From positions 1-64,000 of IMG/VR virus record IMGVR_UViG_3300035034_000924: a DNA stretch of 64,000 nucleotides. One strand, 5' to 3'. The DNA comes from a virus. Positions 49,298-52,810 of the stretch are shown one piece after another. Position numbers and translations under genes: made by a program. Position 1 is the first letter of the stretch. Every line of letters begins with the position of its first letter. The notes under the pieces were generated by a model. The model was not told where the DNA came from. It saw nothing but the letters and a program-made list of their open reading frames with translations, and did no database searches.

Positions 49298-52200
49298 ATG
49301 GCCAAGCTGCCTAAATTTAGAGAAGAGTTCCCTTGTCTGGCATGTCCGCTAGGTGAGCAAGGCTGCGCCAAGATCAAGGCCAGCGGTTCCCGAAGAGCCA
49401 AGATCCTAGTCGTTACTCACGGGCCTCACGACGGAAACGCTGCCCACTACAAAGAGCATATGACCAGAGACGCTCTAGCGGTGTTCAAGAGAGCCATGCA
49501 CGAGAACGGTTTTACCGATTCAGACTTCGTGTTCGTATCTTCGGTACGGTGCTACTACGACAGAGACCTCAGGCCTACGAAAGAAAAGACGCACATAGCT
49601 GAGCAGTGCCGAGAATACTTGCTACGCACCATTGACCAGATGAAGCCAGACATAATTGTACCGTTAGGTGTCGAGGCGGCTAGGTCGGTTTACGGCAAAG
49701 CAAAAAAGATAACCAAGATACGCGGGGCAGTGGAATGGGATGCCGACTACAACGCGCACATATTCCCTATGATTGACCCGCAGATGGTATCCAACTATCC
49801 ACAGAACTGGGGGACATTCAAAGCAGACGCCAGAAGCTTGCGTAGGCTGATGGACAACGGTTTCAACGAAGCAGATGTTGCTAGGCAGGGTCTGGGCGAA
49901 TACGAAATAGTCGATGACCTACAATTCCTGATTGATAAAAACCCAGAAGTATTGGTGCTCGATACGGAGACCGAGGGCAAACGTTGGTCAGAGCGAGATA
50001 AACGGTTATTGACCATTCAGCTAACTGACGAGGCGGGCAAGGGGTATATGGTCGTGTGGGACCACCCAGAAGCACCCGCCAATAGGCAGACAAAGCGTAG
50101 GCTGAGAAGACAATTCAAAGAGCTACTCGAAAGGGAAGAACTCACCGTAGTCGGGCAGAACCTGAAGTACGACGCGCTTTGGATGTATACCAGAGTCGGG
50201 GTCCGGTTCCGAATAGGTGATGACACGCTCATGCTGGCAGCAATCCTAGATGAGAATAACCTGAACAAAGACCTATCCTCACTGACAAAAATGTTTGTGC
50301 CGGAGATGGCGGGCTACGATGATCTGTTCAACAGGACGTACGACAAGTCTAGGATGCAAGACGTACCGATAGCCGAGATACTGAACTATGGTTGCGGGGA
50401 CTCGGATGCTTGCAAACGTTTGCACGAATATTTCTGGGGACAGATAGAGACAGACCCGCAACTGGTTACGCACTATGACGAAGTATCTTTGCCGGGACTG
50501 AACGCGTTCGTCTCTACTGAGATGCGGGGGCTCAAGGTTAACTTAGCGGGGCTGGATGATCTTAGGACTACCTTGGCAGAGTATGTCGATGAGCTGGAAG
50601 AGAGCCTGCTCACACAAATACCTAGAAGAATAAAGCGTGACCACCTAGAAGCGGGCAAAGAGATAAAACTATCAAGGCCTGACCTACTAAGAGACATACT
50701 GTTCCATCATCCAGCAGGGTTTAACCTAAGACCCAGAGTGTTCACCAAGACCACGGCTAAGCTAGCGCCAGAACTGCAAGTACCTTCCACCAGTAGTAAA
50801 GACCACCTACCGTTTTTCTTTGACGATTGCCCGTTCACAGAAGAGCTGGCCGAGTACCAAAAACTTAGCAGGTTGCTGGGTACAAACATTGAGAAGTTTC
50901 AAGAGAACTACATGATCGGGGATATGGTTTACCCGTCCTATCAACTGCACGTCACGGTAACGGGGCGAACATCGTGCCTCAGAGAAGATCAGTTGGTGGA
51001 TACACGCCACGGTAAGAAGCGTGCAGACAACATTGAAGTAGGGGACGAAGTATTCACACACATGGGTAGGTTCCGCCCCGTTACAAAGCTGTTCCGAAAA
51101 CCAGTTACGCCTATGGTGGATGTAAGGTTTAGTAACGGGGAAGTCTTGCATGTCACACTAGATCATATTGTCTTGCTTAACTCTGGTGAGTTTGTTACCG
51201 TTAGGTCAATCATCCAGCAAGGGATAGACTATGCCCAGTGTCAGCAAGAAGCATATGCAGGACGAAGAGCTAGTTTTGCAGGTAGCAGAAACATACCGCA
51301 CATCTATGATGACTGTGCAGGAAGTAGCGGACAGGTATCATGTGAACCACGTAACAGCGCGAGCCATGATTCGGAAGCACATATCAGACGAGGACTTCAA
51401 GAAGTTCGCGCACTACAGATATCACGACAGCAAGCTGGGGAAAAAGAACCATCAGTTTGGCAATCAGCGGGCATCAGATTGCGAGGATGGCAGGGGCTAC
51501 CTTACGAGACTAGTAGAGGGCAAGAGATACTTTGTGCATCGGATAGTATTCGCGGGGGGTATGGGCATGAAGCCTCACGAATTGCCAGAGTCGATGATTG
51601 TACATCACATAGACGGGAACCCGAAGAACAACAGTCTCGACAACCTTGCACTGACAACGCGGAGGGGGTATTCGGGTATACACGACCGATACCTGTTTCC
51701 TTCCGAAGAGTTTCAATTGAGAGCATTGACTATTCGGGAAGCTATCGAGTTTATGACTTCGAGGTAGAGGAAGATCACTCGTATCTGGCGGGTGGCGTAT
51801 TCTCCCATAACTCACAAGACCCTAATGGCCAGAACTTCCCCAAACGTGGCAGGTTCGCTAAAGCGTACCGAAAGCTCTTTGTACCGAACGAAGGTTACTT
51901 CATGCTGGAGGCTGACTTGTCTCAGGCAGAGCTGCGTATATCCGCAGACATGTCGAACGACCAAGAGATGATACGCATCTACAATAGTCCGGGCGGGGAC
52001 ATCCACAAAACAACTGCCCTGATCGTAACAGGGCTATCGGCAGAGCAGTTTGCGCAACTTGATAGGACAGAACAATCACTGGCTAGGTTTAAAGCCAAGG
52101 CCGTGAACTTCGGGTTCATCTACGGTATGGGCTGGAGAAAGTTCATCACGTACGCGAAGACCCAATACGGCGTAGAGTTTACTGACAGAGAAGCGCAGCG

Positions 52201-52810
52201 GATACGGGACCAGTTCTTCCAGAGATACCCTGCACTAGTACGATGGCACAAAGCTATGCGTGAGTATGCAAGGACGCATGGTTATGTGCGGTCTTACAGC
52301 GGGCGAGTACGCCACCTACCTATGATCTACTCGCGGGAAGAGTACATCCGAAACGAAGCTGAGAGACAGGCAATCAATAGCCCCGTTCAGGAGTTCGCCT
52401 CGTCTATCGGGGTCATGGCGCTGAGTAACATTGACCAAGATGTAAACCCTGATTACCTAGCAATTACTGGTTTCGTGCACGATGCTATCTACGCCCTTGT
52501 CCCGTACCAATACGCGGAGTGGGGAGCGAAGACGCTCAAGCATTATATGGAGACTGTAGATATCGAAGGTATATTTAACCGCAGACTCAAAGTACCTATT
52601 CTGGCGGACGTATCTATCGGTTTGAATGGTGGTGAGCAATTCGAGATGGCGGGCCTAGATCTAGATACAGAATACAACTGGGAGTCTCAGCTTGAATATG
52701 AACCGGAAGATGGCTTCCCGTTCGAGATGACAGAGCAGCTGACCCCACCAGACGATGGCTTGATAGAGCTGCCTAGGCACTTAGTAAGACCATCGCTACT
52801 AGCCCCGTGA
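49298..52810 (+). CDS. DNA polymerase family A with N-terminal UDG family-4-like domain and an intein
   Basis: DTET and N.KYD exonuclease motifs; TGRTS|S..PN.QN.P; DLSQAELR; R..AKAVNFG.IYG; VHDA. Confidence 0.95.
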   Translation: MAKLPKFREEFPCLACPLGEQGCAKIKASGSRRAKILVVTHGPHDGNAAHYKEHMTRDALAVFKRAMHENGFTDSDFVFVSSVRCYYDRDLRPTKEKTHIAEQCREYLLRTIDQMKPDIIVPLGVEAARSVYGKAKKITKIRGAVEWDADYNAHIFPMIDPQMVSNYPQNWGTFKADARSLRRLMDNGFNEADVARQGLGEYEIVDDLQFLIDKNPEVLVLDTETEGKRWSERDKRLLTIQLTDEAGKGYMVVWDHPEAPANRQTKRRLRRQFKELLEREELTVVGQNLKYDALWMYTRVGVRFRIGDDTLMLAAILDENNLNKDLSSLTKMFVPEMAGYDDLFNRTYDKSRMQDVPIAEILNYGCGDSDACKRLHEYFWGQIETDPQLVTHYDEVSLPGLNAFVSTEMRGLKVNLAGLDDLRTTLAEYVDELEESLLTQIPRRIKRDHLEAGKEIKLSRPDLLRDILFHHPAGFNLRPRVFTKTTAKLAPELQVPSTSSKDHLPFFFDDCPFTEELAEYQKLSRLLGTNIEKFQENYMIGDMVYPSYQLHVTVTGRTSCLREDQLVDTRHGKKRADNIEVGDEVFTHMGRFRPVTKLFRKPVTPMVDVRFSNGEVLHVTLDHIVLLNSGEFVTVRSIIQQGIDYAQCQQEAYAGRRASFAGSRNIPHIYDDCAGSSGQVSCEPRNSASHDSEAHIRRGLQEVRALQISRQQAGEKEPSVWQSAGIRLRGWQGLPYETSRGQEILCASDSIRGGYGHEASRIARVDDCTSHRREPEEQQSRQPCTDNAEGVFGYTRPIPVSFRRVSIESIDYSGSYRVYDFEVEEDHSYLAGGVFSHNSQDPNGQNFPKRGRFAKAYRKLFVPNEGYFMLEADLSQAELRISADMSNDQEMIRIYNSPGGDIHKTTALIVTGLSAEQFAQLDRTEQSLARFKAKAVNFGFIYGMGWRKFITYAKTQYGVEFTDREAQRIRDQFFQRYPALVRWHKAMREYARTHGYVRSYSGRVRHLPMIYSREEYIRNEAERQAINSPVQEFASSIGVMALSNIDQDVNPDYLAITGFVHDAIYALVPYQYAEWGAKTLKHYMETVDIEGIFNRRLKVPILADVSIGLNGGEQFEMAGLDLDTEYNWESQLEYEPEDGFPFEMTEQLTPPDDGLIELPRHLVRPSLLAP
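50411..50424. repeat. dispersed palindrome, exact
   Basis: TGCAAACGTTTGCA. Confidence 0.9.
50975..51811 (+). mobile_element. intein (279 aa) in PolA
   Basis: Block A CLREDQLV, block B VTLDH, block F VYDFEV, block G SHN followed by Ser+1; splicing restores TGRTS-SQDPN. Confidence 0.92.
51231..51767 (+). CDS. HNH homing endonuclease overprinted inside the intein (+1 frame)
   Basis: N-terminal HTH, G.KN..FG, VHRIV, VHHIDGNPKNNSLDNL; AAGGGA RBS before the ATG. Confidence 0.85.
   Translation: MPSVSKKHMQDEELVLQVAETYRTSMMTVQEVADRYHVNHVTARAMIRKHISDEDFKKFAHYRYHDSKLGKKNHQFGNQRASDCEDGRGYLTRLVEGKRYFVHRIVFAGGMGMKPHELPESMIVHHIDGNPKNNSLDNLALTTRRGYSGIHDRYLFPSEEFQLRALTIREAIEFMTSR

What the first reader, a model, noticed from the sequence alone, without database searches (positions are those of the whole stretch)
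50975..51811. PolA intein with an HNH homing endonuclease gene overprinted in a second reading frame
Seen: a 279-aa intein (C1...SHN|S) interrupts the conserved TGRxS-S motif of PolA. Its central ~175 codons show no recognisable endonuclease motif in the intein frame but contain no stop. The +1 frame holds a 178-aa ORF (51231-51767) with its own AAGGGA RBS, an N-terminal HTH, a G.KN..FG (NUMOD3-like) motif and VHRIV...VHHIDGNPKNNSLDNL. Its stop codon overlaps intein block F. Established: canonical inteins carry the LAGLIDADG or HNH domain in frame between the splicing blocks. Inference: a free-standing HNH gene invaded a mini-intein and both frames are kept open, so 537 nt are dual-coding and the nuclease is translated separately from the polymerase. 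The last HNH helix reads GYSGIH (Tyr where His is common), so activity may be altered. Whether this architecture has already been reported needs a literature check.
Basis: partly seen in the sequence, partly recalled or inferred. Interest (0 to 1): 0.85.

Follow-up and report, generated by a model that had tools for sequence, protein, structure and literature searches.

The report
Polymerase intein with overprinted HNH gene
A lake phage's DNA polymerase gene carries a self-splicing protein insert whose middle also encodes, one base out of step, a separate homing nuclease; the layout is real and conserved in dozens of phages, but the general kind was first described in 2025-26.

Summary
PolA (49298-52810) carries an 837-nt class-1 intein (50975-51811) at TGRTS|S. 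A 178-codon HNH_3 ORF (51231-51767) lies in its +1 frame.

It is not an assembly error. Contigs from two other lake-water studies are identical, without indels. Thirty distinct sequences at 25-70% identity share the layout, always in the same relative frame.

The HNH frame is under purifying selection, with omega 0.06-0.18. Across the overlap the intein frame is no better conserved than the non-coding third frame (40% against 43%). It is kept stop-free by avoiding T before AA/AG/GA codons.

The nuclease is homologous to I-PfoP3I-type nicking HNH enzymes. Those sit in group I introns 12 nt downstream, in the same PolA motif.

This window's copy has Tyr at a His conserved in the other 29 copies, so it may be impaired.

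Out-of-frame homing endonucleases in inteins are already in print for other nuclease families (Gosselin 2025 and Phillips 2026 preprints). I found no report of this HNH/PolA family.

This scan has noted the same kind on other DNA.

Splicing, translation and cleavage are untested.

The parts
49298..52810 (+). PolA host gene, a UDG / 3'-5' exonuclease / family A polymerase fusion of 1170 codons including the intein
   Evidence: ORF list. Pfam UDG, DNA_pol_A_exo1 and DNA_pol_A. The intein-less homologue in Pseudomonas phage SM1 has 968 aa and the same domains.
50975..51811 (+). Class-1 intein of 279 codons: Cys1 ... His278-Asn279, followed by Ser+1 at 51812-51814
   Evidence: Invariant in 16 aligned inteins: C1, T61, H64, D261, H278, N279. 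Solved mini-inteins match the N and C parts only.
50975..51230 (+). N-terminal splicing region (blocks A and B; T61-x-x-H64 at 51155-51166), coding in the intein frame only
   Evidence: Third-position variability follows the intein frame (0.36/0.27/0.60). Omega is 0.12-0.19 in the three pairs where dS was defined.
51219..51224 (+). SD-like AAGGGA, 6 nt upstream of the HNH start codon
   Evidence: Pairing energy with the anti-SD is -5.1 kcal/mol. Across relatives, 15 of 22 loci fall in the top 10% of background windows.
51225..51227 (+). TAG stop in the HNH frame, one codon before the ATG; it closes that frame upstream
51231..51767 (+). Overprinted HNH_3 homing-endonuclease ORF, 178 aa, in the +1 frame relative to PolA and the intein
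   Evidence: Homologous to the Pf-WMP3 intron ORF13 that I take to be I-PfoP3I: BLASTP 27% identity, E 7e-9; hhalign probability 99.8%. Omega 0.06-0.18.
51231..51700 (+). Intein-frame spacer: the same DNA read in the PolA frame. It is stop-free with no recognisable domain and no amino-acid conservation above the third frame.
51603..51683 (+). HNH catalytic motif HH-D...NN...NL...(H/Y)-x3-H (residues 125-151)
   Evidence: Invariant H125, H126, D128, N133, N134, N138 and H151 in 14 ORFs.
51669..51671 (+). Tyr147 codon (TAT), where every other family member read has His
   Evidence: Contigs from runs X2 and X3 show the same letters.
51690..51767 (+). Tail of the HNH ORF overlapping the approach to intein block F; the only stretch where all three codon positions are damped
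   Evidence: Diversity 0.16/0.21/0.33, against 0.31/0.26/0.51 in the HNH-motif stretch (codons 101-152) just upstream. Sliding identity.
51768..51811 (+). Rest of blocks F and G, coding in the intein frame only
   Evidence: Variability flips to the intein third position: 0.10/0.56/0.10 in HNH numbering.

Best explanation
This is a composite mobile element in the polymerase gene of an uncultured lake-water phage.

A class-1 intein sits in the conserved PolA motif TGRxS|SxxPNxQNxP and is removed from the polymerase by protein splicing. That step is inferred from intact splicing residues. The DNA between its N- and C-terminal splicing blocks is occupied by a homing-endonuclease gene of the I-PfoP3I type: an N-terminal helix-rich DNA-binding part and a C-terminal HNH motif. 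This gene is written in the +1 frame.

Ribosomes translating PolA read the same 537 nt as a featureless, stop-free linker joining the two halves of the Hint fold. The nuclease would be made separately, by internal initiation at its own conserved ATG behind an SD-like sequence (inferred). By analogy with its intron-borne relatives, it would nick or cut intein-less polA alleles in the same motif. Repair from the intein-bearing copy would then spread the intein and nuclease together (inferred).

Selection acts on the nuclease frame for protein sequence. On the intein frame it acts only to keep it open. In this phage the nuclease has His147 changed to Tyr in the H-x3-H part of the motif, so it may be weakened or recently inactivated.
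For: **Anatomy**
- Searches give the coordinates and domains.
- Splicing residues C1, T61xxH64, D261 and H278-N279 are invariant in 16 of 16 aligned inteins, and the window has Ser+1.

**Not an artefact**
- Contigs of runs X2 and X3, from other samples and studies, lie on 50500-52300 with 0 other letters and 0 gaps. X3 record 11 spans 50786-51530 and X2 record 7 spans 51497-52181. Run X1 may be the source of this DNA.
- Of 20 loci have an intact +1 HNH ORF, 5 have a degraded one (4 of these are one sequence), and 1 holds an unrelated intein.
- Of 29 long matches examined among the 80 loci, 21 have the -1 frame open across the whole HNH ORF, inside an 874-1847-codon host ORF. One is cut by a contig end and 7 are free-standing.
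- In the 19 of these whose host frame was printed, it reads as PolA with the intein at or next to the same motif.
- Together this gives 30 distinct sequences, all in the same relative frame.

**Stop avoidance**
- In 14 of 14 loci there are 41-58 at-risk codons and none is preceded by T.
- Synonymous reshuffles left the frame open in at most 0.06% of 5000 trials.

**Selection**
- Over the overlap, mean amino-acid identity is 65% in the HNH frame, 40% in the intein frame and 43% in the third frame (7 sequences, 21 pairs).
- NG86 omega is 0.06-0.18 in the HNH frame. For L011/L012, dS is 0.32 in the overlap against 0.30 in the N-splicing region.

**Start**
- The conserved start is ATG in 19 and GTG in 3 of 22 loci.
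- SD-like pairing falls in the top 10% of background windows in 15 of 22.

**Homology to a characterised enzyme**
- Pf-WMP3 ORF13 lies inside the DNA polymerase intron. I take it to be I-PfoP3I from its position.
- PMC3428280 (abstract and passages read) shows I-PfoP3I nicks the intron-less polymerase gene 4 nt upstream of the intron site.
- That intron site, TRLSSSKP|NIQQIP, is 12 nt downstream of this intein's site.

**Intein-less allele**
- Pseudomonas phage SM1 PolA reads VTVTRRTA-SRDPNGQNFP without an interruption.

**Mobility hint**
- HNH identity exceeds C-extein identity in some pairs, for example L018/L049 at 54% against 25%. Spearman correlation is 0.32 over 268 pairs.
Against: - No experiment or expression data exist. 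Splicing, internal initiation and cleavage are all inferred.
- The window's own SD-like pairing is only moderate (15th percentile), and no promoter-like enrichment was seen.
- Tyr147 replaces a His found in all 29 other overprinted copies and in the five intron-borne relatives whose motif I read. The nuclease here may therefore be inactive.
- Within the window's own subgroup the exteins are more similar than the HNH genes. That fits vertical descent at least as well as recent homing.
- The HTH call is below Pfam's threshold.
Confidence: 0.82

Rival explanations
1. The layout is as described, but in this phage the nuclease is already dead (His147Tyr). The element is now only inherited vertically, as a stage in the homing cycle before the gene decays.
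For: - Tyr147 is unique among the 30 overprinted copies. It sits in the H-x3-H part of the motif.
- From recalled knowledge of HNH enzymes such as colicin E9, those histidines bind the metal ion.
- The same allele is present in three lake-water runs.
- Decayed relatives exist: a 203-codon intein with the HNH motif deleted (L013/14/26/27) and a truncated ORF (L015).
- In the window's subgroup the exteins are more alike than the HNH genes.
Against: - The ORF is otherwise intact, with all other invariant residues.
- The window/L022 pair shows omega 0.15 in the HNH frame, like the other pairs.
- Stop avoidance and the start codon are kept.
- A single substitution cannot be dated with these data.
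Confidence: 0.3
2. Assembly or sequencing artefact: two compensating indels have thrown an ordinary in-frame HNH intein out of frame.
For: The record is a metagenome assembly, and canonical inteins carry the nuclease in frame.
Against: - Identical contigs without indels come from two other studies.
- The same +1 arrangement occurs in 30 distinct sequences at 25-70% identity.
- A stop lies one codon upstream of the ATG in the HNH frame.
- The host frame shows systematic stop avoidance.
- None of 29 long matches is in frame.
Confidence: 0.01
3. The insert is a group I intron carrying an HNH gene, like its relatives. It would be removed at the RNA level, and the open host frame would be incidental.
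For: The nearest named relatives of the HNH do lie in group I introns of polymerase genes, 12 nt away in the same motif.
Against: - Rfam gives no match at E <= 1 in 50700-52100.
- Rfam gives none at E <= 0.01 in 11 of 11 overprinted loci.
- All 4 intron-type loci give Intron_gpI hits, including the experimentally confirmed Pf-WMP3 intron.
- Hint blocks with invariant splicing residues lie at both ends in the host frame.
- The codon-position pattern follows the host frame in both flanking parts.
- Stop avoidance in 14 of 14 loci would have no purpose in an intron.
Confidence: 0.02
4. The nuclease is made by programmed +1 ribosomal frameshifting from the PolA frame, as an N-extein/N-intein/HNH fusion, not by separate initiation.
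For: Both frames are on the same mRNA, and no separate promoter was detected.
Against: - The HNH frame is closed by a stop 0-12 codons upstream of the conserved start in the 14 loci read. In the window the shift would have to occur within about two codons.
- The start codon is conserved as ATG or GTG in 22 of 22 loci where it was located.
- SD-like sequences are enriched.
Confidence: 0.03
5. True dual function: the intein-frame reading of the overlap is itself a selected domain, for example one regulating splicing or binding DNA.
For: - The 9 inteins of A1 are all exactly 279 residues with no indels, at 39-59% identity to the window.
- Motifs such as GIRLRGW and SHRREPEEQ recur in the intein frame.
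Against: - Those motifs lie over the most conserved HNH-frame stretches.
- Identity in the intein frame (40%) does not exceed the non-coding third frame (43%).
- Synonymous sites of the HNH frame, which are non-synonymous in the intein frame, evolve as fast as synonymous sites in the flanking splicing region.
- No Pfam or PDB match covers the stretch.
- The more distant group differs in spacer length.
Confidence: 0.05

Closest known systems
Non-canonical actinobacteriophage inteins with homing endonucleases in another frame or strand (Gosselin, Arsenault and Gogarten, bioRxiv 10.1101/2025.01.02.630785; abstract, sections 8 and 15 and passages read)
   Same: - A nuclease ORF lies between the splicing blocks but not in the intein's frame.
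- The intein-frame reading has no recognisable fold.
- Origin is proposed as invasion of an intein by a free-standing nuclease gene.
- One of their types, endonuclease VII-like in frame 3, is on the same strand.
   Different: - Their out-of-frame or antisense nucleases are LAGLIDADG, VSR-like and endonuclease VII-like. Their HNH examples are in frame.
- Their hosts are actinophage genes, and the polymerase named in the passages I read is DNA polymerase III alpha.
- Here the nuclease is an HNH_3 / I-PfoP3I-like gene in the +1 frame of a family A polymerase intein, in uncultured phages.
- Their supplementary tables could not be read, so I cannot exclude that a case like this is listed there.
Cyanobacterial dnaX intein with an out-of-frame LAGLIDADG gene (Phillips, DeSimone and Gogarten, bioRxiv 10.64898/2026.09.14.751524; abstract, section 17 and passages read)
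   Same: - A same-strand overlapping ORF under purifying selection, while the overlapped intein frame shows raised dN/dS.
- Mini-intein relatives exist.
- Interpreted as a secondary invasion of a mini-intein.
   Different: A different nuclease family, a different host gene (dnaX, cellular) and a different relative frame (+2).
I-PfoP3I, and the I-HmuI/I-BasI group of HNH nicking endonucleases in group I introns of phage DNA polymerase genes (PMC3428280; abstract and passages read)
   Same: - A homologous protein: 27% identity, hhalign probability 99.8%. It has the same order of parts, with the HNH motif at the C-terminal end.
- It resides in the same conserved polymerase motif, 12 nt away.
   Different: - The vehicle is an RNA-spliced intron with a non-overlapping ORF.
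- Here the vehicle is a protein-spliced intein, and the ORF overlaps the host frame along its whole length.
- Activity is shown for I-PfoP3I but not for this protein.
ShiLan-type hidden HNH insertions in phage methylase genes (Arsenault, Gosselin and Gogarten 2025, PMC11855218; abstract and Discussion read)
   Same: An out-of-frame HNH ORF inside a host gene whose own frame stays open through the insert.
   Different: That insert has no splicing domains and is thought to stay in the protein. Here intact intein blocks flank the ORF.
Fractured genes with split inteins and a free-standing nuclease gene between the halves (Dassa et al. 2009, PMC2677866; search listing and start of abstract only)
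   Same: A free-standing-type nuclease gene lodged inside an intein-coding region.
   Different: There the host gene is broken into two genes and the intein acts in trans. Here the host frame is continuous (1170 codons).

Membership tests
Class-1 intein (Hint fold) | N-terminal Cys/Ser nucleophile at position 1 | tested here: met
   Cys1 at 50975-50977, invariant in 16 of 16 aligned inteins.
Class-1 intein (Hint fold) | Block B T-x-x-H | tested here: met
   T61 and H64 are invariant in 16 of 16. The block label is assigned from recalled motif definitions.
Class-1 intein (Hint fold) | C-terminal His-Asn followed by Ser/Thr/Cys at +1 | tested here: met
   H278-N279 are invariant. Ser+1 is at 51812-51814.
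Class-1 intein (Hint fold) | Sequence similarity to known Hint or intein splicing domains | tested here: inconclusive
   - Pfam Intein_splicing scores 29.0 bits on the intein alone (24.4 on the whole PolA), below the cut-off of 35.8. Hint_2 scores 20.1 against 28.4.
- A profile of 16 members hits solved mini-inteins, for example the gp41-1 intein at E 1.2e-8.
Class-1 intein (Hint fold) | In-frame insertion in a conserved host motif, with homologues that lack it | tested here: met
   TGRTS|S...; Pseudomonas phage SM1 PolA is uninterrupted at this point. The phage-database match skips exactly 837 nt (1514 query bases against 677 record bases).
Class-1 intein (Hint fold) | Protein splicing activity | not testable with these tools
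   Needs expression of a precursor.
HNH_3 / I-PfoP3I-like HNH homing endonuclease | Pfam HNH_3 above the gathering score | tested here: met
   42.1 bits against 24.8.
HNH_3 / I-PfoP3I-like HNH homing endonuclease | Complete catalytic motif HH...N...N...H-x3-H | tested here: not met
   H125, H126, N133, N134, N138 and H151 are present. Position 147 is Tyr, where the other 13 of 14 ORFs and all further copies read have His.
HNH_3 / I-PfoP3I-like HNH homing endonuclease | Homology over most of the length to the characterised enzyme | tested here: met
   - BLASTP 27% identity over 148 aligned positions, E 7e-9.
- hhalign probability 99.8%, E 1.5e-27, 140 columns.
- That ORF13 is I-PfoP3I is inferred from its position inside the intron described in PMC3428280.
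HNH_3 / I-PfoP3I-like HNH homing endonuclease | Site-specific nicking of the element-free allele | not testable with these tools
[quoted passage not shown] | Nuclease ORF between the splicing blocks, same DNA, different frame, host frame uninterrupted | tested here: met
[quoted passage not shown] | Purifying selection in the nuclease frame and relaxed amino-acid constraint in the overlapped intein frame | tested here: met
   Omega is 0.06-0.18 in the HNH frame against 1.3-3.8 in the intein frame. Identity is 65% against 40%.
Group I intron carrying an HNH gene | Group I catalytic RNA structure around the ORF | tested here: not met
   No Rfam match at E <= 1. The positive control gave 4 of 4 intron-type relatives.
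Fractured gene / split intein | Host gene divided into two ORFs, each ending or starting with an intein half | tested here: not met
   A single 1170-codon ORF.

The most novel reading that the evidence does not exclude
One lineage of HNH homing endonucleases specialised on the PolA motif TGRxSSxxPNxQNxP has used both kinds of self-splicing vehicle. These are group I introns at PN|xQN and an intein at S|S, 12 nt apart.

The intein version arose once, by capture of such a gene in the +1 frame of a mini-intein. It has since persisted as a roughly 540-nt sense-sense overlap through divergence down to about 25-30% identity, spreading among very different phage polymerases.

That would make it a natural test bed for the 'splicing element first, nuclease second' route to mobile inteins. 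It would also be one of the longer stably maintained gene overlaps in phages.
Probability: 0.45. Interest if true: 0.7.

Novelty: new variant of a known kind. Interest (0 to 1): 0.55.

Why it matters
**For annotation.** Gene callers see one long polymerase gene and miss the nuclease. On short contigs they call the nuclease as a lone 'hypothetical protein'.
- There are 68 clusters at E <= 1e-30 in a 50%-identity library.
- There are 219 hits in the 90%-identity collection.
- How many of these are overprinted was not tested.
- So a sizeable family of mobile elements in phage replication genes may be largely unannotated.

**For the biology of mobile elements.** The family gives homologous nucleases in an intron and in an intein at one target. 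This allows direct comparison of how a nuclease gene teams up with a splicing element. It also shows that an intein can tolerate about 170 residues of arbitrary, unselected linker, which is useful for intein engineering.

**For overlapping genes.** It is a clean case in which one frame is selected for sequence and the other only for the absence of stops.

Tried and rejected
- **The look-up of encoding contigs.** I obtained DNA of relatives through the search for related loci, using alignments.
- **The protein-atlas search on the intein-frame spacer.** Not available.
- **PDB sequence search with the HNH profile.** No hit at E <= 0.01. This is uninformative, not evidence against the fold.
- **First scans of viral contigs with single proteins.** They gave only distant or partial matches, and I set them aside.
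- **Promoter scan.** 4 promoter-like sites against 4.0 expected, so there is no evidence for an internal promoter.
- **Expression.** No RNA holder was listed, so nothing can be said about expression.
- **Longer fused forms of the HNH.** Only two weak, unrelated hits (NUMOD4 plus HNH_3). The tool itself calls a blank weak evidence.
- **Literature.**
  - Searches found the three Gogarten-lab papers, but no report of an out-of-frame HNH in a family A polymerase intein.
  - The phrase 'non-canonical inteins' up to 2003 found nothing.
  - The DOI of Gorbalenya 1998 is not held, so that paper is cited only through the two preprints.
- **Own-genome search with PF14890.**
- **Rooting of the HNH tree.** The root is weak (SH-aLRT 75), so I do not claim a direction between the intron-borne and intein-borne forms.
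- **Slips and dropped rows.**
  - In one search the start I gave for L032 was one codon off the conserved GTG. This does not affect the count of stops.
  - In one search my pattern located the start in 22 of 30 loci. The other 8 (L040, L041, L042, L046, L047, L049, L054, L055) were left out.
  - In one search I examined 29 of the 80 loci, those with long matches. The 51 short matches were not read.
  - In one search, pairs with fewer than 120 aligned extein residues were dropped.
Full report
**What is there**

The window is the first 64 kb of an 85,398-bp IMG/VR virus record. Runs holding it are lake-water metagenomes.

ORF 49298..52810 encodes a 1170-aa protein with uracil-DNA-glycosylase, 3'-5' exonuclease and family A polymerase domains. 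Residues 560-838 (50975-51811) are an insert that begins with Cys and ends with His-Asn. It is followed by Ser and sits in the motif TGRTS|SQDPNGQNFP. Pfam recognises intein splicing and Hint signatures only at its two ends, below the curated cut-offs. A profile of 16 related inserts matches solved mini-inteins over positions 5-90 and 235-279 and nothing in between.

In the +1 frame, ATG 51231 to TAG 51767 gives a 178-aa protein. It scores above Pfam's threshold for HNH_3 (42.1 against 24.8 bits) and matches several PHROG HNH families. In that frame a TAG lies one codon before the ATG, and AAGGGA precedes it. The third frame is full of stops.

**Is it real?**

Contigs from three public lake-water runs lie on 50500-52300 with no differing letter and no indel. 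One run may be the source of this DNA. The other two come from other samples and studies. Between them they bridge the intein start, the HNH start, the Tyr147 codon, the HNH stop and the intein end.

A search of 5.8 billion proteins with the intein region found 35 polymerases. About 26 of them cover at least 96% of the query region, the odd middle included, at 29-61% identity. Nine intein sequences, the window's among them, are each exactly 279 residues with no indel.

DNA for relatives came from IMG/VR and JGI/ENA contigs. I examined two sets.
- First set, 20 loci: 14 have an intact +1 HNH ORF, 5 have a degraded one (four of these are one sequence), and one holds an unrelated intein.
- Second set, 29 long matches to the HNH protein: 21 are embedded in an 874-1847-codon host ORF that stays open in the -1 frame, one is cut by a contig end, and 7 are free-standing.

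For the 19 embedded loci whose host frame I printed, it reads as PolA with intein blocks at or beside the same motif. After removing duplicates this gives 30 distinct sequences, all with the nuclease +1 relative to the host. No in-frame version appeared.

**Selection**

A stop in the host frame can arise only where an HNH codon ending in T precedes one starting AA, AG or GA.
- Each of 14 ORFs has 41-58 such at-risk codons, and none is preceded by T.
- T ends 16-35% of the other codons.
- Synonymous reshuffling with the extein's codon usage leaves the host frame open in at most 3 of 5000 trials, and gives 6-17 stops on average.

Over the 537-nt overlap in seven gap-free relatives (21 pairs), mean identity is 65% in the HNH frame, 40% in the intein frame and 43% in the non-coding frame. 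Nucleotide diversity peaks at the HNH third position (0.28/0.23/0.49).

NG86 omega is 0.06-0.18 in the HNH frame and above 1 in the intein frame. In the closest pair, synonymous divergence in the HNH frame (0.32) equals that of the flanking splicing region (0.30). The intein frame therefore adds no measurable amino-acid constraint.

Constraint switches frame at both ends. The N-terminal 72 codons and the last 44 nt follow the intein frame. In the last ~25 HNH codons all three positions are damped.

**How the nuclease is probably made**

The start codon is conserved, as ATG in 19 and GTG in 3 of the 22 loci where I could place it. The HNH frame is closed 0-12 codons upstream in the 14 loci read. 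SD-like pairing upstream is in the top tenth of background windows in 15 of 22 loci. The window's own site is moderate.

This favours internal initiation over frameshifting, but neither was observed. No promoter-like enrichment was seen, and no RNA run holds the region (listed under Tried and rejected).

**What the nuclease is related to**

The best matches among isolated phages are at 26-28% identity over 76-95% of the length. They are HNH genes that interrupt DNA polymerase genes: Providencia phage PS3 and coliphage PhAPEC7 (annotated as joined CDS, the latter 'located in intron') and Leptolyngbya phage Dor1. In each, the polymerase breaks at ...SSxxP(N)|(L)QNxP.

Four of the seven free-standing IMG/VR relatives sit at the same point. 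One sits at another polymerase site and two sit elsewhere.

Rfam's group I intron model hits all four named intron loci at sub-threshold scores, E 1e-6 to 3e-3. It hits L064 six times, twice above the gathering score. It hits neither the window nor 11 of 11 overprinted loci. L051, L058 and L059 gave no intron hit, so those may be split genes or divergent introns.

Pf-WMP3 ORF13 lies inside the intron whose endonuclease, I-PfoP3I, was shown to nick the intron-less gene 4 nt upstream of the intron site, with a 14-bp recognition site downstream of the cut (PMC3428280). It aligns with the window's protein at 27% identity (E 7e-9) and with the family profile at 99.8% probability. The Pf-WMP3 intron site is 12 nt downstream of this intein's site.

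In a quick maximum-likelihood tree of 40 proteins, the seven intron-type genes form one group (SH-aLRT 86) next to three overprinted ones. The root is weak, so I claim kinship, not direction.

One overprinted locus (L047) has its intein at DPN|...|SQNIP, the intron's position.

**Mobility**

An intein-less allele exists. Pseudomonas phage SM1 has the same three-domain polymerase, uninterrupted at this point. Decayed forms exist. Some pairs share about 50% HNH identity while their polymerase C-exteins share about 25%. That is hard to explain by vertical descent alone.

Within the window's own subgroup the exteins are the more similar part, so recent transfer into this phage is not shown.

**This copy**

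Residue 147 is Tyr. All 29 other overprinted copies, and the intron-type relatives I read, have His there, in an H-x3-H pair. From recalled knowledge of HNH enzymes these histidines help hold the metal ion, so activity may be reduced. The codon is identical in independent runs. Nothing else in the ORF looks decayed.

**Comparison with what is known**

Out-of-frame or antisense homing endonuclease genes in inteins are in print in three Gogarten-lab papers.
- The actinophage survey lists antisense LAGLIDADG, antisense VSR-like and frame-3 endonuclease VII-like genes. It lists HNH only in frame.
- The cyanobacterial dnaX paper reports a +2 LAGLIDADG ORF with the same frame-specific selection pattern.
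- The ShiLan paper describes a hidden HNH in a methylase without any intein.

Both preprints credit Gorbalenya 1998 with the first case. I could not read that paper. Five full-text searches found no description of an HNH gene overprinted in a family A polymerase intein, nor of its kinship with the intron-borne polymerase HNH enzymes.

Notes of this scan show the same kind recorded on other genomes. My tests here are independent of those notes.

**Verdict**

The intein frame is a stop-free spacer, not a second selected protein. The architecture as a class is already published.

What is new is the family: an I-PfoP3I-like HNH, in the +1 frame, in PolA. Also new are its breadth and its link to intron-borne relatives at the same target. 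I rate it a new variant of a known kind, with interest 0.55.

Noticed in passing
L064:600-4950: A polymerase locus from IMG/VR with six Rfam group I intron hits in 5.4 kb, two of them above the gathering score (92 and 88 bits), plus a free-standing HNH relative. The gene appears riddled with introns.
   Followed up: no
L047:2100-3100: An overprinted-HNH intein inserted at ...TGRLSSTDPN|C...HN|SQNIP. This is about four or five codons downstream of the usual site and coincides with the intron insertion point of the related intron-borne HNH genes.
   Followed up: partly
L013:2501-3109 (same sequence in L014, L026, L027) and L015:2501-3160: Shortened inteins of 203 and 220 codons in which the +1 HNH ORF is broken or truncated while the intein frame stays open. 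They look like decay stages of the same element.
   Followed up: partly
window 49298-49810: The polymerase carries an N-terminal family-4-type uracil-DNA glycosylase domain fused to the exonuclease and polymerase domains. The same fusion occurs in Pseudomonas phage SM1 and in most relatives found.
   Followed up: no
P0009, P0010, P0015, P0017: - Some related polymerases are much longer (1516-1994 aa).
- P0009 breaks off into a second intein-like insert after ...ARFKAKAC.
- Further inteins at other polymerase motifs in this group therefore seem likely.
   Followed up: no
My search of the whole record with Pfam Intein_splicing found only the PolA intein, so that claim stays unchecked.
   Followed up: partly
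L050, L053, L055 (HNH ORFs): These overprinted HNH genes carry the KP.W(F/Y)TGR.GSK insertion typical of the intron-borne relatives, and they group next to them in the tree.
   Followed up: partly
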